Shown one piece after another: positions 3,827-14,440 of a stretch of DNA of 14,440 nt. The translations under genes were made by a program, and so were the position numbers. The notes beneath the pieces are model-generated. The model had not been told where the DNA came from. It saw nothing but the letters and a program-made list of their open reading frames with translations, and did not search any database. Position 1 is the first letter of the stretch, and every line of letters begins with the position of its first letter. The DNA comes from a virus (taxonomy: Duplodnaviria; Heunggongvirae; Uroviricota; Caudoviricetes): the IMG/VR virus record IMGVR_UViG_2939147180_000003; one strand, written 5' to 3'.

Positions 3827-5021
<1,195 letters not shown>

Positions 5022-7446: not shown

Positions 7447-8289
7447 ATGAAACTGACTTTACCATTTCCACCGAGCGTAAATAGTTACTGGCGCGCCCCG
7501 AGCAAGGGACCGCTGAAAGGCAGGCATCTGGTAAGCGAGACAGGGCGCAAGTTCCAGCAGGCAGCGAGAGCGGCGATTATTGAGCAACTGCGGGCCGTTC
7601 CCCGGCCATCCTCAGATCTGGCCGAGGTTCACATAAACGTTGTTGAGGGCGCGGGGCTTGAGCTTGATCCTGATGATGATTCACAGGTTCTTAAAGCGAT
7701 TGGTGGCGGTCGCCTGCTTAATATTGTCACCTTTACTAAGTCAGGGACTTACACTCCAACTAAAGGGACGAAAAGAGTGCGGGTGAAAGTTTGGGGAGCG
7801 GGGGGAGGTGGCCAGAATGCTCCAGTTAGTGTGGGCGCATCTGGAGGTTGTGCTGGTGGATTTTCGGAAGGGTTATTTAATATTTCTGATAACGAAACTA
7901 TATCTGTGACGATAGGTACTGGTGGCAGTGCTGTTGCTGCTGGTGTCTCGTCTAAAGGCGGGAATGGTGGTGATACAAGGTTCGGGAGTTTAATCTCAGC
8001 TACTGGAGGGAGTGGTGGCGGGGCTACAGTTCCTGCTGGAGGTATCGGAAGTGGCGGGAACATTTTAAATATTACTGGCGGAATATCTCAAGGTGGTCTG
8101 TATTATGGTTCTGATGCTTTTATTGGCGGGGCTGGAGGATCTGCATTTTCATCAACGGGTGGCAATGGCCACTTCGGTAGTTCTGGCGATGATGGCGGTT
8201 TCCCCGGCTCAGGTGGTGCCGGGGGGAATGGTAACTATTCATCAGGAAAAGGAGCGAATGGTTTAGTTTACCTTGAAGAGTTTTCCTGA
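7447..8289 (+). CDS. Chimeric ORF: RusA-like Holliday-junction resolvase N-terminal region fused to a glycine-rich tail-fibre-type C-terminal domain
   Basis: aa 1-96 RusA-like (LPFPPSVNSYWR, DPDDDSQV, GGGRLLNIVTF); aa 111-280 Gly-rich repeats (VKVWGAGGGG ... GANGLVYLEEFS). Synonymous codon usage shifts from G/C-ending to A/T-ending near nt 7720-7780. ATG 7447 with AAGGGGG upstream. Confidence 0.65.
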   Translation: MKLTLPFPPSVNSYWRAPSKGPLKGRHLVSETGRKFQQAARAAIIEQLRAVPRPSSDLAEVHINVVEGAGLELDPDDDSQVLKAIGGGRLLNIVTFTKSGTYTPTKGTKRVRVKVWGAGGGGQNAPVSVGASGGCAGGFSEGLFNISDNETISVTIGTGGSAVAAGVSSKGGNGGDTRFGSLISATGGSGGGATVPAGGIGSGGNILNITGGISQGGLYYGSDAFIGGAGGSAFSSTGGNGHFGSSGDDGGFPGSGGAGGNGNYSSGKGANGLVYLEEFS

Positions 8290-9359
8290 TTATTTTTGCT
8301 TTGAGCGTCCGCCCTTATTTTTGCTCTAATTTTAATTAGTGGCTTGTCTATTAATATTACACAAACGATCCCAAGTGCAATTGATATTGGGTAGCCTAAT
8401 AAAAAGATGGATAAGCCACGATTTTCACCACCAATAGCAAGCCATGCTAGAAATCCACCAAAATATTGACAAAGAAAAATTGGATAGGCCAGGTCACCAA
8501 ACCACTTGAGTATTTTCTCAAGATGTATGTTTGTCTTTATTTTTAATAATACCAGGGTTGTAAACAATGCTATTACATTATTGGTGTAGTAAAGTATTAT
8601 GTTGTACTGACCTAATGGATTAATTGTATATAAATGCCAATTGGTAATAAAAATCCCGATGCAAATAAATGTTATTAAAAAAGCTTTGTGTGGAGAAAGA
8701 TACATAGCTTTGAACTTTCTATGGGCAAAATAACCCAGAGAACCCATGCTAAAAGGAAGTGTTGCAGCAAGGAATGGGAAATACGCCATATCAAAAGAAT
8801 GGTGTACTACATATACGTAAGCATGATAAAGCAGTGAAAGCAGAATCGACGTAATGGCTGTAAATTTATTTCGGGCTATGAAAAGCCACAATAAAAAATA
8901 ACATGTTATCTCAACACCCACTGACCATGATGATGTGACTATTCTGAATCTATTACCATCAATAGCAAAGTGATAAATGGATGAAAAGGCACCGAATGGA
9001 TTTGCTACAGCATTATCAGAAAGGAAAGCCCAGGGGAAGATTAAGAGGTTTCCTAATAAATCTCCAGGTAAGAAATTGCCTGTCCAGTTTGAGTGGAATT
9101 CCTTTGCGGATGGAATTAATTTTATAATAAGAAAGCCCATGACGAGAAAAAATATATATGCCGGGAATAACCTCAGTATTCTATTTTTCCAAAACATAGA
9201 GAAGTTGAACTTGTATGTTTCATGCAAAATGTATGTTATTAAAAAACCACTAATAACATAGAAGCAATTCACTGCAAAGTTGCCAAGTGCAGGTATGCGA
9301 GCCGTTAAGTGAAAAGCAATGACGCACGATGCCAAAAAAAACCTTATTAGGCCAAGCAT
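8268..9359 (-). CDS. Acyltransferase family 3 integral membrane protein (O-antigen / polysaccharide O-acetyltransferase-like)
   Basis: 363 aa, about 10 hydrophobic segments, AT-rich coding sequence; resembles phage Oac/OafA-type acyltransferases. Start ATG 9359 overlaps the stop of the upstream small ORF; 3' end overlaps the convergent 7447..8289 ORF by 22 bp. Confidence 0.8.
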   Translation of the reverse strand: MLGLIRFFLASCVIAFHLTARIPALGNFAVNCFYVISGFLITYILHETYKFNFSMFWKNRILRLFPAYIFFLVMGFLIIKLIPSAKEFHSNWTGNFLPGDLLGNLLIFPWAFLSDNAVANPFGAFSSIYHFAIDGNRFRIVTSSWSVGVEITCYFLLWLFIARNKFTAITSILLSLLYHAYVYVVHHSFDMAYFPFLAATLPFSMGSLGYFAHRKFKAMYLSPHKAFLITFICIGIFITNWHLYTINPLGQYNIILYYTNNVIALFTTLVLLKIKTNIHLEKILKWFGDLAYPIFLCQYFGGFLAWLAIGGENRGLSIFLLGYPISIALGIVCVILIDKPLIKIRAKIRADAQSKNNQENSSR

Positions 9360-9622: not shown

Positions 9623-9723
9623 TCTCTTATTTAACCGTTTAAACACGTAAGGCGATGTTAGCCCTGAAGGGGCGGGGCGTCAATCTTAATTGCTTCATTG
9701 AAAAGATGAAGACAGGAACAGGT

Positions 9724-11718
9724 ATGGACAAAAGATATAATACCGGCAATCCAAGACCTTCAAATAGCATGAAGGATCTGAATGATAACGCCCTGGCGTA
9801 CGATGATTTCCTGAACAGCGAAAGCGATACTTTTATAGATCGTTTTGGTAACGCCCAGGATACGATAATTGGGGCTACTAAAAAAATGGCAGCTGCTACC
9901 GACGCTGTTATTGATGAAGCCCGCCAAAACCTGATCCCTCTCAGCCGGCAGTACATGACGCTGGCGGCGGCGCAGGCGGATATTGCGAATATTCCGGCAG
10001 GTTCAACAACCTATGTCCGCAGTCAGGACGGAAGCTCTCTGGCCGATGAGTATATCAACCTCGCTGGAACGCTGCAGCCAACCGGACGGCGGATGGTTCG
10101 TGACGACTACGCATACCAGGTATCGCCAGACAGCGTGACCCTGGCAGCATATGATCCGGAGACTTCCCGCGTGGCTCCATTTTTAAATACAAGCGGCAGA
10201 TTAATTCAAATCGGTCCTGACGGAAAATATTACGAACTTTTAACCCAACAAGAATCCGAACTCTATGCGCTGGGCCGGGAGGGTTCTATACCGCAGTTTA
10301 TTGGCGGTGAAAAAGTGTGGCGGATGACGGTTGATTCAACCACAAACCAGATCGTTGAAGCTTATACGGTTGGTGGGAAGCACTGGATTTACTCAGACGG
10401 TGGCCTGGTAGCTGTTAATAACGGAAATGGCGGTGGTGGTGGCGACGATGATGCCAACCAGCTCCCTGAGTATGGACTTCATTTGTCAGGGTCTACTGTG
10501 TACCCCTACTCAGAGACAGTGCCTGTATGTTTTATCTTTGTGACTGCTGGGCAATCCAACGCTCGAGGATATTGTCCTGACGCCGATCAAACCATTGTCG
10601 CAGCAACGCCGATATATCCTGATAACGCTTTCATGCTCAGCGGCGGGGTTAGGCGTACAGGGACACGCAGCACTACTCTGGTGCCACTGGTTGAGGCAGT
10701 AAGTGGGACAGATAAAGAAACGGCCGCAAGCGGCCTCGCGAACACCTTCATTCGCGATATGGCTGCAGCTACCGGAATCATGCCGCGCACGCTATCAATC
10801 GTATGTGCGCAGTCTGGTCAGGCTTACGAGTACCAGAAACGGGGTAACCAGGTATATCAGTATCTGCTCGATTCAATCGAAGACTGCGTAACGGCCTGTA
10901 AAGCACGCGGCTGGCTGCCGATTGTTCTCTGCGTTGACTGGATGCAGGGAGAGTCCGACGAGGACTGGTCAGGATTACGAGAAGGAATGTATGAATCACG
11001 GATGAGGCAGTACCAGAGACAAATCACCAGCGACATCATCGCAAGAACGGGTCAAAACGAACCGCCGATTATCGCCATTACCCAGCTGGGGTATGTCAAT
11101 GACGGGCATGGTGCATTTACAGGCCAGTACGCGCGACTGGCGTCGACGCGATTGCACGGAAAAGAGCAATTCAGGCTGGTCAATAGTTTGTACCAGTACG
11201 ATTTTATTTCAGACGGTCTGCACTTGACGTGTGCGGGCCAGAACCGGCGCGGAGCAGCTGTGGCGAGAGCGCTTCTCCAGGAGTGGTTTACGAGCGGCTG
11301 GTCAGGGATGGTTCCGACCAGTTTCGTGTGGAACTCACCCACGCAGATACAAATCAATGTCCCAGCGTATACGAACCTGGTGCTGGACACGACTACGATC
11401 AACACCTCCGGTCTGGCCAATTACGGCTTTAGCTACACGGATGAGACTGGTGCTCCACCTGCTATATCGAGCATCGCGATCAGCTCGGACGGCAAGGGCG
11501 TGCTGATTAACCTGGCGACCGCCCCCTCTGGACGTTTTGGGCGCGTTTCCTATGCGACAGCAGAAAACCCACTTCAGAGCGGCGCATCTGTAAAACCTTC
11601 CGGGCGGACTCTTGGTGCAAGAGGGTGTGTTCGATCTTCCGCTGGAATCATATGGGTGTATGACACATCCGTGACTCTTTACGACTGGCTCCCCGCTTTT
11701 CGTATTAACGTTTTCTGA
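9724..11718 (+). CDS. Tail-fibre/tailspike-like protein with central SGNH-type (sialate O-acetylesterase-like) hydrolase domain
   Basis: Track ORF 9655..11718; likely start ATG 9724 (AGGAACAGGT upstream). GQSN block at aa 276-279 (nt 10549-10560, FIFVTAGQSNARG) and DGLH block at aa 497-500 (nt 11212-11223); Gly-rich linker NNGNGGGGGDDD before the esterase domain. Tail-fibre role inferred from context. Confidence 0.7.
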   Translation: MDKRYNTGNPRPSNSMKDLNDNALAYDDFLNSESDTFIDRFGNAQDTIIGATKKMAAATDAVIDEARQNLIPLSRQYMTLAAAQADIANIPAGSTTYVRSQDGSSLADEYINLAGTLQPTGRRMVRDDYAYQVSPDSVTLAAYDPETSRVAPFLNTSGRLIQIGPDGKYYELLTQQESELYALGREGSIPQFIGGEKVWRMTVDSTTNQIVEAYTVGGKHWIYSDGGLVAVNNGNGGGGGDDDANQLPEYGLHLSGSTVYPYSETVPVCFIFVTAGQSNARGYCPDADQTIVAATPIYPDNAFMLSGGVRRTGTRSTTLVPLVEAVSGTDKETAASGLANTFIRDMAAATGIMPRTLSIVCAQSGQAYEYQKRGNQVYQYLLDSIEDCVTACKARGWLPIVLCVDWMQGESDEDWSGLREGMYESRMRQYQRQITSDIIARTGQNEPPIIAITQLGYVNDGHGAFTGQYARLASTRLHGKEQFRLVNSLYQYDFISDGLHLTCAGQNRRGAAVARALLQEWFTSGWSGMVPTSFVWNSPTQIQINVPAYTNLVLDTTTINTSGLANYGFSYTDETGAPPAISSIAISSDGKGVLINLATAPSGRFGRVSYATAENPLQSGASVKPSGRTLGARGCVRSSAGIIWVYDTSVTLYDWLPAFRINVF

Positions 11719-11727
11719 GGATAAAAA

Positions 11728-12528
11728 ATGAGACTGATTTACACACTAACTGGACTGAATAACCCCTTACTCCCTGTGTACTCACAAACAGCGGCAGAGA
11801 AAGCGATCTCAGAACTATCCCCATCAGTATGGACACCAGTGAAGACAGAGTTTCTAAAAATGGGGTCTGGTGCAAAAGTAGTAGCTATCTCTAACCGATT
11901 AGATGGCGGACTTTTCAAGTCACTGGAGACCCTCGAGCCATCCACAAAGCTGAATGGTTCTGTTTTGCAGGGGCTTAATTTCTCCGGTGCATCCGGCATG
12001 GCTGGTGATACGGCGGTGGTTATGGACGCAAACATCAATACTTTTGCATTCATCTATCAGCTGCCAGGTGGGGCGCTTCCGGCTACGCCACAGGACAGAG
12101 CGGTTATCGCAACCCAGGAAAGCACACCTCATGGCGTCGGCATTCGTACAACGTCAGCAGGTTCATTCCCGATTTTTCTGAATGGAGGGATCGAGGCCGA
12201 TCTGGCATTTACTCCTAACAATATAGGGCAATCTTTATTCTGCGCTGTAGTTATGTGCTCTAACAAGGCTGCTGGATCCTATGCAATTGCATACCAGCGG
12301 TCAGATCAGTCTGCAGTGACCAGCCGACAAGTGACGGGCTATACAATCCCAGCGTATAGCCCGTCTCAAAAAATGAGTATTGGCGGAGCAGGCAATGGTT
12401 CAGTGTCTCCGTTAACATCCGTTTTGTCAGAATGTTTGGTTTTCCCCGGCAAATATGCATATGGGACCAGCACACTGGATGTCATCCTGGCATATCTGAT
12501 GGAGAGGATTGGAAAAATCACGGCCTAG
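11728..12528 (+). CDS. Hypothetical protein (266 aa) co-transcribed with the esterase tail-fibre gene
   Basis: GAGGA 7 nt upstream of ATG 11728, 10 bp after the upstream stop; no family motif recognised. Position is analogous to tail-fibre assembly or distal fibre genes. Confidence 0.55.
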   Translation: MRLIYTLTGLNNPLLPVYSQTAAEKAISELSPSVWTPVKTEFLKMGSGAKVVAISNRLDGGLFKSLETLEPSTKLNGSVLQGLNFSGASGMAGDTAVVMDANINTFAFIYQLPGGALPATPQDRAVIATQESTPHGVGIRTTSAGSFPIFLNGGIEADLAFTPNNIGQSLFCAVVMCSNKAAGSYAIAYQRSDQSAVTSRQVTGYTIPAYSPSQKMSIGGAGNGSVSPLTSVLSECLVFPGKYAYGTSTLDVILAYLMERIGKITA

Positions 12529-12721
12529 AATTTGCCGAATGCATCCGAGTCGGTCCGCAGCGATGGAGCAGGAGAGAGTCGGCGGCCGCCGCCGGATAAT
12601 GACTGAAGAAGTGGTGGAGCGGTGCCGCAGAATGCTGGAGAACGGCGCTACCCGGCAGCAGGTGGCTGATGTGACAGGCGTGGACGTGAAAACAATCTAC
12701 AAGTACCTCCCGGCGACTTGA
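12509..12721 (+). pseudogene. Remnant of a Hin/Gin/Pin-type serine DNA invertase (C-terminal HTH fragment only)
   Basis: AAMEQERVGGRRRIMTEEVVERCRRMLENGATRQQVADVTGVDVKTIYKYLPAT resembles the invertase C-terminus (GRIGGRRPKLT ... RQQ.A...GV..T.Y+Y.PA) with an apparent internal deletion; the resolvase catalytic domain is absent. Confidence 0.5.
12662..12717 (+). repeat. Direct repeat copy 1 (invertase 3' end, about 55 bp)
   Basis: TGGCTGATGTGACAGGCGTGGACGTGAAAACAATCTACAAGTACCTCCC; related copies at 13241-13292 and 13449-13505. Confidence 0.6.
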
Positions 12722-12798
12722 AGGCAAAGATTTCACTACTTTTCCTGATATGTTACGTTTGGCTTAATCAATTCATTCAGCTTTGAAAACAGTTTGGT

Positions 12799-13221
12799 TT
12801 GTTCGTGAACGGTAAGAAAACAATAAGTTTTGAGCAATTTTTAACTATTAACAGCAATCTTGTTTCCATCTCAGATACATGGGCTGACTTGTGGGCGTTA
12901 ATTTTTCACACGGGTTTAAGCGCTGGAAGGCTGCTGAGTATTCGATATGATGATATTGATGGTGACTTGATACTGATACGAAAACAGGGTCACCTGAAGG
13001 AGCTACGTGTTAAATCAACCCCTCCAGTGGAGGGGATCATTGCTCGTAGAAGAGAACGCTATCCAGAAGATGTTTTTTTATTTCAGAGCCATTCTAACCG
13101 TGTGAAGTACCAATGCCGGCCGGTCACTATAATTGCTTTCAACGCCGCTTTACGTCGCGCCGCTAGATCATTACCAGACGTTAACGTAAGCAGTAGTAGC
13201 GCGAGAAACATACCGGACTAA
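12799..13221 (+). pseudogene. Tyrosine-recombinase-like fragment (FimB/FimE-like core, truncated at both ends)
   Basis: No ATG anywhere in frame (TTG/GTG only); ALIFHTGLSAGRLLSIRYDDIDGDLILIRKQG resembles the box-I region of small tyrosine recombinases; the HxLRH and Tyr-containing C-terminal region are missing. Followed in frame after one stop by a copy of the invertase-3' repeat. Confidence 0.35.
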
Positions 13222-13240
13222 CCGCCTGTCCAGTCGCGTG

Positions 13241-13292
13241 TGGCCGATGTGACAGGCGTGGGGGTGAAGACTATTTACAAATATTTGCCAGT
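13241..13292 (+). repeat. Direct repeat copy 2 (invertase 3' end)
   Basis: TGGCCGATGTGACAGGCGTGGGGGTGAAGACTATTTACAAATATTTGCC; high identity to copy 1 with scattered substitutions; encodes VADVTGVGVKTIYKYLP in the frame of the upstream recombinase-like ORF. Confidence 0.6.
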
Positions 13293-13304
13293 ACAATACG
13301 GCGA

Positions 13305-13338
13305 TAAAAACCCCCTTGAGCAGGCACACTCAAGGGGA
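13305..13338. terminator. Strong hairpin, terminator-like on the minus strand
   Basis: Perfect 9-bp stem CCCCTTGAG (13313-13321) / CTCAAGGGG (13330-13338), 8-nt loop; A-run 13307-13311 upstream gives a T-run after the hairpin on the minus strand; no U-tract on the plus strand. Confidence 0.3.
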
Positions 13339-13448
13339 AAATACTACATAACATCATTGCTGTGTGCGTCTTTGCGCTCGTCTATCTTCCAAGAATATGC
13401 CTAAAGCTTCCAGATATTTCTGGTCTGAGCTGTTACATCATGGAGTAG

Positions 13449-13505
13449 GTGCCGATGTGATAGGTTAAGAGCGAAGATGATCTGTAAGTACCTTCCGACG
13501 TCGAG
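13449..13505 (+). repeat. Direct repeat copy 3 (degenerate)
   Basis: GTGCCGATGTGATAGGTTAAGAGCGAAGATGATCTGTAAGTACCTTCCGACG; clearly lower identity than copy 2, with in-frame stops. Confidence 0.45.
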
Positions 13506-13841
13506 GGGCAATGACCATGAATTTGGGTCTATACCATCCCAATTCATATATTCTTTGTAAGTCTATGAAATATAGAGCAAAGTATTCTGTTCGAAATGAA
13601 CCATATGGAATAGCCAAAGGCTAAAATGCCCAGAGTAAAAACAACAATCAGCAAGTCCGTCTGTGACATCTTATATCCATTTTGCAGTAGCAGGTTTTGA
13701 GAAAAGATAGTTCATAGTTGGCACATAGACAACATAATCACTAAGTGAAACCAATATCAGAGGCTAAAAGGTGACTGGTTTCCTCCTCAGTGTTCCTGAT
13801 TGATAGCTGGAACCTGTATTGATCAGATCTCTTAATGAATC

Positions 13842-13861
13842 TACTGTATATAAAAACAGTA
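13842..13861. promoter_or_regulatory. LexA box (SOS operator)
   Basis: TACTGTATATAAAAACAGTA: CTGT-N8-ACAG with AT-rich spacer, full match to the LexA consensus and, as I recall, identical to the E. coli umuDC operator. Lies 18 nt upstream of ATG 13880, just before GGGAGGTG. Confidence 0.8.
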
Positions 13862-13879
13862 TTTTCGGGAGGTGAAGTT

Positions 13880-14038
13880 ATGCCGCGAAACTCAGATATC
13901 GAAATAGCCTGGCGTCAGGCAATTGTCATTGAGCCTAATGGCCGTCGCACCGTGACAACGTCCGGTTTTATCCGGGAACTCGCAAAAGTTAACTGGATAT
14001 GGTCACCGCGCCAGGCTAACCAGTGGATAGAGCACTGA
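13880..14038 (+). CDS. Small protein (52 aa) immediately downstream of the LexA box
   Basis: Track ORF 13835..14038 trimmed to ATG 13880 with GGGAGGTG 5 nt upstream; MPRNSDIEIAWRQAIVIEPNGRRTVTTSGFIRELAKVNWIWSPRQANQWIEH; no family recognised. Confidence 0.5.
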   Translation: MPRNSDIEIAWRQAIVIEPNGRRTVTTSGFIRELAKVNWIWSPRQANQWIEH

Positions 14039-14047
14039 CATTCCGGG

Positions 14048-14440
14048 ATGTCTCAACGCAGGAAGGCGATGAGCTCACGTTCCAGTTATACAACCCAAAC
14101 GGAGGGCTATAACGTGGGATTTCCGTCGCCAGCTGCTGACTATGTTGAACGGCGTCTGACCGTTGATTCACTCTGCGGTACCGGCCCCAATACTCGGATA
14201 GTACAAACAGAAACCGGCTATGCCGTAGTGGATTGCTTCGTAAAACCAAAGCAAGGAGATACCGTTTTAATTCAATACGGCGGCGGCACTGATTTTGCAA
14301 AAATTATGGGCCGGGCATTTATTACACGAGACGGTGAAGCGTTGGAAGGTGAGGCCCTGGATGATGTTACAGTTGTCGGGGTAGTGACATTCGTTATCAA
14401 TCGGATAGGGAAGGATGATGATGATTATCCAGTAATATGA
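14048..14440 (+). CDS. UmuD-like (peptidase S24 fold) protein, apparently lacking the Ser nucleophile motif
   Basis: GFPSPAADYVERR at aa 24-36 matches the UmuD region around the Cys24-Gly25 cleavage site; C-terminal DDVTVVGVVTFVINRI resembles the UmuD C-terminal strand; TGYAV occupies the place of SGDSM. Alternative start ATG 14069. Stop TGA is the last codon of the window and overlaps an ATG (ATATGA). Confidence 0.65.
   Translation: MSQRRKAMSSRSSYTTQTEGYNVGFPSPAADYVERRLTVDSLCGTGPNTRIVQTETGYAVVDCFVKPKQGDTVLIQYGGGTDFAKIMGRAFITRDGEALEGEALDDVTVVGVVTFVINRIGKDDDDYPVI

What the first reader, a model, noticed from the sequence alone, without database searches (positions are those of the whole stretch)
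12509..13510. Three diverged direct copies of an invertase 3' end flanking a truncated tyrosine-recombinase-like ORF
The last ~55 bp of a Hin/Gin-like invertase gene (HTH coding) occur three times in direct orientation (12662-12717, 13241-13292, 13449-13505) with increasing divergence. Copy 2 lies in frame right after a start-less, C-terminally truncated tyrosine-recombinase-like ORF, separated by one stop codon. This resembles scars of repeated site-specific integration into the 3' end of the invertase gene, each event supplying a replacement 3' end, with the 140-aa ORF a decayed integrase of such an element. A decayed tail-fibre inversion switch is an alternative.
Basis: partly seen in the sequence, partly recalled or inferred. 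Interest (0 to 1): 0.55.

Follow-up and report, generated by a model that had tools for sequence, protein, structure and literature searches.

The report
Invertase-end repeats flanking a phage cassette
The three repeats are left-over 3' ends of phage DNA-invertase genes at a recombination-prone module border of an E. coli HS prophage, and they bracket a small, conserved, catalytically dead integrase-like gene that related phages either have or lack; this is ordinary phage mosaicism, not site-specific integration.

Summary
Three direct copies of an invertase 3' end lie at 12662-12717, 13240-13296 and 13442-13505, and a 140-codon tyrosine-recombinase-like ORF sits between copies 1 and 2.

The topology is as proposed. 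Ten of 48 related phage contigs, and E. coli prophages L034/L035, have an uninterrupted invertase that runs straight into copy 2, a spacer and copy 3. Thirty-seven contigs, like the window, carry a 578-bp insert (replacement 3' end plus ORF) in the invertase 3' end.

The proposed mechanism and the role given to the ORF are not supported:
- Crossover points inside the repeats vary between lineages, and no active recombinase is present. This fits homologous exchange on about 55-bp anchors that began as truncation scars.
- The ORF (phrog_19751) is not a decaying integrase. It keeps 132-150 codons across at least 8 enterobacterial genera, with median dN/dS of 0.18.
- It has the fold of the N-terminal part of an integrase catalytic domain, but it lacks Arg-I and the tyrosine nucleophile.
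- It also occurs at prophage ends that have no repeats.

Copy 1 is also the remnant of a decayed tail-fibre inversion switch. Interest is modest.

The parts
12554..12721 (+). 5'-truncated Hin/Gin-type serine invertase gene (about residues 128-182: arm plus HTH). Pseudogene remnant of a tail-fibre inversion switch.
   Evidence: Pfam HTH_7 E=1.9e-9. tblastn to a full-length invertase matches aa 128-182. PGAP: 'incomplete, missing N-terminus'. Positions 12555-12660 differ at only about 4 sites from the full-length invertase of L034 in alignment A7 (BLAST windows against L035 93-100%).
12662..12717 (+). Copy 1: the invertase 3' end ('X-type' allele) that travels with the ORF.
   Evidence: Identity between lineages rises from 70-90% to about 100% at roughly 12660-12675.
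12722..12798 (+). Conserved 78-nt spacer between the invertase stop and the ORF. It holds a possible extended -10 promoter for the ORF (read by eye, not tested).
   Evidence: Conserved in L007, L014 and L016 and in 36 of the 37 ORF-carrying viral contigs.
12799..13221 (+). ORF140 (TTG start): a conserved small protein with the N-terminal part of a tyrosine-recombinase catalytic-domain fold. It lacks Arg-I and ends just after the HxxR-equivalent 'SSxSAR', so it has no tyrosine nucleophile.
   Evidence: phrog_19751 E=5e-46 and phrog_1 (integrase) E=2.4e-8. Foldseek: top 37 hits are tyrosine recombinases, best XerA E=2.9e-3, TMq 0.64. 161 homologues of mostly 136-145 aa. dN/dS median 0.18. No Pfam or NCBIfam hit on its own.
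13222..13239 (.). Junction J2: the end of the ORF module joined to about codon 160 of a second invertase gene. Single origin, shared by all carriers.
   Evidence: Homology to ORF-only loci stops within 5 nt of the stop codon. The junction is near-identical (a few point differences) in all 37 class B contigs.
13240..13296 (+). Copy 2: the displaced 3' end of a 'Y-type' invertase. In class A phages the same sequence is the working 3' end of a full-length invertase.
   Evidence: Collinear with L034/L035 from here onward and with 10 of 48 viral contigs.
13297..13440 (.). Spacer B: the native sequence downstream of that invertase. It includes a minus-strand intrinsic terminator hairpin at 13311-13338.
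   Evidence: Homologous to the invertase-downstream spacer of L003, L015 and L010, with stem changes that keep pairing (read by eye from the alignment). Terminator scan.
13442..13505 (+). Copy 3: an older, decayed invertase 3' remnant (1-nt deletion, in-frame TAA). It is also a mosaic joint.
   Evidence: At least four right-hand variants with different downstream DNA, plus the hybrid L076.
13506..13830 (.). 'Down' region that follows copy 3 in both class A and class B phages. It contains a conserved 41-aa hydrophobic ORF on the minus strand (13544-13669).
   Evidence: 91-100% identical in 48 viral contigs. The ORF is intact in every locus where it could be read.

Best explanation
The three copies mark a recombination-prone module border in the late/right arm of lambdoid prophages of Escherichia, Klebsiella and Raoultella.

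Origin of the copies (inferred). Copies 2 and 3 each began as a scar. An incoming tail-fibre/invertase module, with its downstream cargo, was joined illegitimately into the 3' part of the resident invertase gene and left that gene's last roughly 55-60 bp behind. For copy 2, the incoming module was 'invertase, 78-nt spacer, ORF140', which is a native arrangement in many Klebsiella prophages.

Later exchange (shown by comparison). Because invertase 3' ends are conserved between otherwise unrelated modules, these short direct repeats then served as homology anchors.
- Recombination between copy 1 and copy 2 removes the 578-bp ORF140 segment, or the reverse reaction installs it.
- Recombination within copy 1 or copy 3 swaps whatever lies to the left or to the right.

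The result is a presence/absence polymorphism of ORF140 and a patchwork of flanks whose breakpoints all fall inside the repeats, at variable positions.

In HS itself, a further separate deletion removed the invertase 5' part (junction near 12554), so the inversion switch is dead.

ORF140 is cargo, not the agent of these events. It is a selected, non-catalytic derivative of a small tyrosine recombinase. It normally sits at the prophage end or next to the int/att region. Its function is unknown; my guess is that it binds DNA or a recombinase partner near att.
For: Empty and occupied sites:
- L034/L035 and 10 of 48 IMG/VR contigs have a continuous invertase, then copy-2-type end, spacer B, copy 3 and the 'down' region. 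Thirty-seven of 48 have the ORF140 insert.
- Window 12555-12660 differs from the L034 invertase at about 4 sites, and from about 13300 to 13780 the window is 93-100% identical to L034 downstream DNA.

Variable crossovers:
- Class A hybrids differ. L055 has a copy-1-type left part and a copy-2-type right part. L080 crosses over at the left edge of copy 2. The L035 type equals the class B2 copy 1 up to GAAGACGAT followed by the copy-2-type sequence.
- L012 keeps Y-like bases further into copy 1 than HS does.

Breakpoints sit in the repeats:
- The 96-100% identical block shared by HS, SCU-308, Raoultella and three phage records starts at about 12665 (in copy 1) and ends at 13420-13490 (at copy 3).

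Scars are forming now:
- The invertase upstream of copy 1 is full length in 21 contigs and truncated in 14, at six or more different points between aa 71 and 151.
- Other loci carry additional remnants: L014 (aa 118-189) and L010 (aa 162-181 followed by what reads as a umuD 3' remnant).

ORF140 is independent of the repeats:
- It occurs directly after an invertase with no second copy (L003, L007) and after tail fibres with no invertase (L013, L017, L019-L022 and others).

Mechanistic precedent:
- Homology-driven exchange that tolerates diverged substrates, driven by phage Rad52-like recombinases, is the main source of lambdoid mosaics and leaves traces at fragment borders (PMC3945230).
Against: - The longest perfectly identical run between copies 1 and 2 is only 16 nt, which is short for RecA. 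The model therefore leans on Red/RecT/Erf-type recombinases, which I did not look for in this prophage.
- The left limits of copies 2 and 3, and of the extra copies in L010 and L018, all fall within about 20 nt (invertase codons about 155-162). Chance gives this a probability of only a few percent, and my model does not really explain it. Possibly only short remnants survive next to a full-length copy.
- The direction of individual events (gain or loss of ORF140) cannot be told from hybrid sequences.
- No experimental data.
Confidence: 0.72

Rival explanations
1. Small integrative elements insert site-specifically into the invertase 3' end, each carrying a replacement end. ORF140 is the decayed integrase of one such element.
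For: - Empty and occupied sites exist, with a replacement 3' end and a displaced one.
- The left limits of the copies cluster within about 20 nt.
- ORF140 is tyrosine-recombinase-like and abuts copy 2.
- A genuine case of this integration style is visible in L034, where an icd 3' fragment lies at the prophage end.
Against: - Crossover positions inside the repeats vary.
- ORF140 lacks Arg-I and the tyrosine, keeps 132-150 codons across at least 8 genera with dN/dS 0.18, and is widespread without any repeat.
- Its native position directly after an invertase needs no second copy (L003, L007).
- No hix/gix-like site lies at the repeat boundary.
Confidence: 0.1
2. Passive scars only. The copies are inert leftovers of serial illegitimate module replacement and play no later role. 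Class A phages are simply descendants of the lineage that never received ORF140.
For: - Many independent invertase truncations exist.
- Remnants of other genes lie in the same region, such as what reads as a umuD 3' end in L010 and L014.
Against: - Class A hybrids L055 and L080 carry sequence specific to copy 1 or to the left part of copy 2, joined to copy 2's right side.
- High-identity blocks end inside copies 1 and 3 in several lineages.
- Copy 3 has four right-hand variants behind one shared left junction.
Confidence: 0.12
3. The repeats are functional. Examples would be targets or sources of an antisense RNA read from the minus strand through copy 3 to the terminator at 13311-13338, or protein-binding sites.
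For: - A conserved minus-strand terminator, with stem changes that keep pairing, and a conserved 100-nt stretch lie between copies 2 and 3.
- An intact 41-aa minus-strand ORF lies upstream of copy 3.
Against: - No Rfam match and no minus-strand promoter in the scan.
- Copy 3 is replaced by other alleles in related phages.
- Copy 2 lies beyond the terminator.
- Loci with the same spacer lack copy 3 (L003, L015).
Confidence: 0.05

Closest known systems
Mosaic module borders of lambdoid phages made by relaxed homologous recombination (De Paepe et al. 2014, PMC3945230; 'boundary/linker sequences' of Juhala et al. 2000, cited from memory)
   Same: Short, conserved, partly diverged sequences sit at the edges of exchanged blocks. 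Flanking modules vary independently. Breakpoints fall inside the shared sequence at variable positions.
   Different: Here the shared sequence is the 3' end of one gene, present two or three times in direct order on the same genome. It therefore also produces a gain/loss polymorphism of the enclosed gene, and the anchors themselves are truncation scars.
Integration into the 3' end of a gene with a replacement end (e14 in icd; tRNA-targeting islands; from memory). The icd fragment in L034 is an example in the data.
   Same: A direct repeat of a gene's 3' end brackets inserted DNA, the target gene stays intact, and tandem events would stack displaced ends.
   Different: There is no active integrase. 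The repeats are only 84% identical, crossovers are not fixed, and the insert is one 140-codon gene.
Hin/Gin/Cin/Pin tail-fibre inversion switches
   Same: Copies 1-3 derive from such invertase genes. Related loci have the intact switch, with 31-bp inverted crossover sites of hix/gix style (L003).
   Different: In the window the catalytic domain and the crossover sites are gone, so nothing can invert.
Small tyrosine recombinases of about 185-200 aa (FimB/FimE size class, from memory; the ~185-aa PF00589 relatives found here)
   Same: ORF140 shares their start at the catalytic domain and the signature RRRxxYPxD(I/V)(Y/F)(L/V)FQSHSNR.
   Different: ORF140 stops after the HxxR-equivalent box, has Ser in place of Arg-I, and has no His-III or Tyr. 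The 175-aa Franconibacter form keeps the length but not the canonical residues.
Integron gene cassettes
   Same: A single promoter-poor gene is bounded by a recombination sequence and is present or absent at a fixed spot.
   Different: There is no attC structure, no IntI, and no sign of a dedicated mechanism.

Membership tests
Site-specific integrative element targeting a gene 3' end | Empty site in related genomes, with the insert bounded by a duplicated target 3' end | tested here: met
   Class A (10 of 48 contigs, plus L034/L035) against class B (37 of 48, plus the window).
Site-specific integrative element targeting a gene 3' end | Crossover at one fixed core position | tested here: not met
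   Hybrid repeats L055, L080 and the L035 type, and copy 1 of L012 against HS, place crossovers at different positions.
Site-specific integrative element targeting a gene 3' end | A cognate active recombinase encoded by the element | tested here: not met
   The only ORF in the insert lacks Arg-I and the Tyr nucleophile. The invertase's own crossover-site motif is absent from the repeat boundary and from the window.
Homology-driven phage mosaic junction | High-identity blocks end within a short sequence shared by both partners | tested here: met
   Sliding identity shows the block starting at about 12665 and ending at 13420-13490, that is, in copies 1 and 3.
Homology-driven phage mosaic junction | Flanking modules vary independently | tested here: met
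   Upstream: tail spike (HS), retron RT (L032), other tail genes (L033), or a full invertase. Downstream: four copy-3 variants.
Homology-driven phage mosaic junction | A recombinase able to use about 50 nt of diverged homology (Red-beta/RecT/Erf) is available | not tested
   The early region of the prophage lies outside the window and was not examined.
Hin/Gin/Pin serine invertase (copy 1 gene) | N-terminal resolvase catalytic domain with the active-site Ser | tested here: not met
   Only aa 128-182 remain.
Hin/Gin/Pin serine invertase (copy 1 gene) | C-terminal HTH_7 domain | tested here: met
   PF02796, E=1.9e-9.
Hin/Gin/Pin serine invertase (copy 1 gene) | Inverted crossover sites flanking an invertible segment | tested here: not met
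   No match to the L003-type site with up to 3 mismatches in the window.
Tyrosine recombinase (PF00589) - ORF140 | Homology to the catalytic domain | tested here: met
   phrog_1 integrase E=2.4e-8. Foldseek: top 37 hits are all tyrosine recombinases. The family profile reaches proteins that hit PF00589 at E down to 6e-24. Pfam itself gives no hit for ORF140.
Tyrosine recombinase (PF00589) - ORF140 | Catalytic R-K-H-R-H/W-Y set | tested here: not met
   By my reading of the alignment, Arg-I is replaced by Ser (GLSxGRL), HxxR is replaced by SSxSAR, and the protein ends before His-III and Tyr. A conserved Lys67 is present.
Tyrosine recombinase (PF00589) - ORF140 | N-terminal core-binding domain | tested here: not met
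   The protein starts at the catalytic domain.

The most novel reading that the evidence does not exclude
ORF140 (phrog_19751) is a domesticated, catalytically dead half-integrase that temperate enterobacterial phages keep next to their att/int region. It might tune integration or excision, or interfere with rival integrases. The invertase-end repeats would then act as natural 'recombineering arms', letting this gene hop between any phages that carry a Hin-type invertase.
Probability: 0.2. Interest if true: 0.55.

Novelty: new member of a known kind. Interest (0 to 1): 0.3.

Why it matters
This is a clean natural example of how truncation scars of a conserved gene become homology anchors. Those anchors then drive gain, loss and shuffling of neighbouring phage genes. 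Both states and several hybrid junctions are preserved in public genomes.

It also flags an uncharacterised but clearly selected protein family, derived from the N-terminal part of an integrase catalytic domain, that sits at prophage ends in many Enterobacteriaceae. Neither point overturns current understanding.

Tried and rejected
- **Direct family and structure searches for ORF140.** Pfam, NCBIfam, and PDB sequence and profile searches found nothing. Only PHROGs, fold search and a family profile showed the recombinase link.
- **Rfam** on 12400-14100: no credible match.
- **A protein on the minus strand of spacer B.** Frames are not conserved across loci, so I dropped this.
- **Invertase-mediated recombination at a quasi-site in its own 3' end.** The crossover site of these invertases (L003, TTCGC..AAACC..GGTT..GCGAA) has no counterpart at the repeat boundary or anywhere in the window.
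- **Stop-codon readthrough fusing ORF140 to copy 2.** Rejected. The junction has a single origin, homologues without copy 2 end at the same place, and the extension would add only part of an HTH.
- **Tandem duplication of one unit.** Rejected. Copies 1 and 2 are different invertase alleles, and copy 2 is collinear with a working gene end in class A.
- **PADLOC:** no defence-system hit for ORF140 or its neighbours.
- **H50 (strain D53-1):** its context was uninformative.
- **ARAGORN** found no tRNA at the site PGAP calls 'tRNA-OTHER'.
- **A Chi-like octamer** (GCAGGTGG, against Chi GCTGGTGG) at the common left limit is noted only as a thought. It was not tested.
Full report
**Where the window comes from**

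The window is identical to E. coli HS and 14 other E. coli chromosomes; 58 of 5426 complete genomes match part of it. It covers the late genes and right end of a prophage that lies next to yodB/zinT. A 2026 preprint counts two complete prophages (P2-like and P22-like) and two remnants in HS and describes its Klebsiella-like capsule. By elimination this lambda/Mu-type prophage may be one of the remnants, but I did not confirm that. The capsule fits the fact that almost all relatives of the region are Klebsiella or Raoultella phages.

**The observation**

The repeat finder and MAFFT recover the three direct copies at the stated places.
- Copy 1 against copy 2 is 37/44 identical. Its local score is 53, against at most 27 for 400 real 1-kb control segments.
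- Copy 3 is weaker, at about 70% with two 1-nt gaps, but its score of 29 exceeds all controls. It has better preserved counterparts at the same position in related loci.
- Copy 1 closes a 5'-truncated Hin/Gin-type invertase (HTH_7 E=1.9e-9, invertase residues 128-182).
- The 140-codon ORF (TTG start) is followed in frame, after one TAA, by copy 2.

**What the ORF is**

On its own it hits nothing in Pfam, NCBIfam or PDB sequences. Other evidence shows what it is.
- It belongs to phrog_19751 (unknown function, profile length 140; E=5e-46) and matches the PHROG integrase profile at E=2.4e-8.
- An AlphaFold model (pLDDT 68.6) finds only tyrosine recombinases among its top 37 PDB matches: XerA, lambda Int, P2 Int, Cre and IntI.
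- A family profile reaches about 185-aa proteins that hit PF00589 (E down to 6e-24). By my reading these keep the catalytic residues and share the signature RRRxxYPxD(I/V)(Y/F)(L/V)FQSHSNR.
- ORF140 corresponds to the N-terminal part of that domain. It has Ser where Arg-I should be, 'SSxSAR' in place of HxxR, and it ends there, with no tyrosine.

It is not a decaying gene.
- There are 161 homologues, mostly 136-145 aa.
- Of 24 loci examined, 20 have an intact frame of about 132-150 codons, across Escherichia, Klebsiella, Raoultella, Kluyvera, Superficieibacter, Yokenella, Pseudocitrobacter, Scandinavium and an unclassified enterobacterium, down to 39% identity. Two Franconibacter-group loci (one titled Enterobacter pulveris) have a longer form (about 175 aa), and two loci are disrupted.
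- Median pairwise dN/dS is 0.18.
- Its usual place is the last gene of a prophage, after the tail fibres and, when present, the invertase. It often sits near a umuD-like gene. In L011/L012 it converges on the phage integrase, and a 187-aa relative in L038 lies convergent to a 470-aa integrase and a small ORF that is probably xis.
- Many of these loci have no second invertase copy.

**What the copies are**

Copy 2 plus the 150-190 nt after it is homologous to 'invertase 3' end plus its native downstream spacer' in L003, L015 and L010. That spacer includes a minus-strand terminator hairpin whose stem changes keep pairing, as read by eye from the alignment.

The decisive comparison is with E. coli prophages L034 and L035.
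- There, a full-length invertase runs without interruption into the copy-2-type end, the spacer, copy 3 and the following 360 nt.
- The window's invertase remnant (12555-12660) differs from the L034 invertase at about 4 sites, and its sequence from about 13300 to 13780 is 93-100% identical to L034.
- Relative to these phages, the window therefore carries a 578-bp insert made of a replacement invertase end (copy 1), a 78-nt spacer, ORF140 and 18 nt.

A scan of IMG/VR for a 19-mer downstream of copy 3 returned 48 contigs.
- 10 have the empty arrangement (class A).
- 37 have the ORF140 arrangement (class B).
- 1 has neither copy 2 nor the ORF.

**Mechanism**

Crossovers are not at a fixed point.
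- Class A contig L055 joins copy-1-type sequence (gtgGCT...GGCGTGG) to the right side of copy 2.
- L080 switches at the very left edge of copy 2.
- The L035 type equals a class B2 copy 1 up to GAAGACGAT, followed by copy-2-type TTACAAATATTTGCC.
- L012 keeps Y-type bases further into copy 1 than HS does.

Breakpoints fall inside the repeats.
- The 96-100% identical block shared by HS, SCU-308, two Raoultella genomes and three phage records begins at about 12665, inside copy 1. It ends at 13420-13490, at copy 3.
- Copy 3 occurs in at least four right-hand versions, each with different downstream DNA, behind one shared left junction. L076 is a hybrid.

This pattern fits homologous exchange on short, diverged anchors, as shown experimentally for lambdoid phages and their Rad52-like recombinases (PMC3945230). 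It does not fit a recombinase cutting at a fixed core.

The anchors must have started as illegitimate joins, and such joins are visibly frequent.
- The invertase upstream of copy 1 is full length in 21 class B contigs and truncated in 14, at six or more different points between residues 71 and 151.
- L014 and L010 carry further invertase remnants, and what read as umuD 3' remnants.

HS has one such truncation near 12554, and no crossover site is left in the window.

**What remains unexplained**

The left limits of copy 2, copy 3 and the extra copies in L010 and L018 all fall within about 20 nt (invertase codons 155-162). Possibly only short remnants survive beside a full-length copy, or the spot is a recombination hot spot. 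I could not test either idea. The direction of individual gain or loss events is also undetermined, and the function of ORF140 is unknown.

**Verdict**

- The sequence features are real.
- The 'insertion with replacement 3' end' topology is right.
- The site-specific mechanism and the 'decayed integrase' role are not supported.
- This is a well-documented instance of ordinary phage mosaicism, enclosing an uncharacterised but selected integrase-derived gene.

Noticed in passing
window 13842-13861: A near-consensus LexA (SOS) box, TACTGTATATAAAAACAGTA. It lies just upstream of a 52-codon gene (ATG 13880, phrog_3893) and a UmuD-like gene (GTG about 14114 to 14440, phrog_3469). PGAP calls part of this a frameshifted 'DNA polymerase V'.
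   Followed up: partly
window 13544-13669 (minus strand): A 41-aa hydrophobic ORF (MSQTDLLIVVFTLGILAFGYSIWFISNRILCSIFHRLTKNI). It is intact in every related locus where it could be read, with changes mostly confined to the C-terminal third. It has no PHROG or PADLOC hit. It may be a small membrane protein or toxin near the SOS box.
   Followed up: partly
window 13311-13338 and 13339-13435: A minus-strand intrinsic terminator hairpin whose stem changes between loci keep pairing. It is followed on the plus strand by about 100 nt conserved at the DNA level with no conserved reading frame and no Rfam match.
   Followed up: partly
L011 4740-4815; L012; L015 4430-4500; L021, L022, L024-L026, L030, L036: Downstream of ORF140 homologues lies a conserved element. 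It consists of a hairpin with loop (T/C)ATGCAAG and covarying stems, then AGGTGTTCATGCC, then a small second hairpin. In L011/L012 it sits about 20 nt from the 3' end of the phage integrase. It is absent from the window. It could be an att-arm, sib-like or RNA element.
   Followed up: partly
L038 5001-5564; P0159, P0161, P0184, P0199: A family of about 185-aa tyrosine recombinases that consist of the catalytic domain only and appear to keep the catalytic residues. These are the intact relatives of ORF140. One lies convergent to a 470-aa integrase and a small ORF (probably xis) of a prophage.
   Followed up: partly
L028/L029 about 3971-4498: The Franconibacter-group version of ORF140 is about 175 aa. 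It keeps the rest of the catalytic-domain fold, but with non-canonical residues (SSQSARKT; LNHHDAAYTRAW).
   Followed up: no
L032 4173-5657; L008 2089-3573: Reverse-transcriptase genes lie immediately beside the invertase/ORF140 block in some phages: a retron-type RT by annotation in L032, and an RVT_1 protein followed further downstream by an AbiTii gene in L008. This prophage arm appears to be a cargo or defence hot spot.
   Followed up: no
window 8268-9359 (minus strand) and 9655-11718: An acyltransferase gene on the opposite strand lies among the tail genes, followed by a 687-aa SASA/sialate O-acetylesterase-domain protein (likely a tail spike). These look like surface-polysaccharide-directed modules, in keeping with HS's Klebsiella-like capsule.
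   Followed up: no
L001 15937-16073 (just beyond the window end): PGAP annotates a 137-nt 'tRNA-OTHER' at the prophage/chromosome border. ARAGORN finds no tRNA or tmRNA there.
   Followed up: partly
L072, between copy 3 and the 'down' region: About 1.2 kb is inserted right after copy 3 in one viral contig. Its nature was not examined.
   Followed up: no
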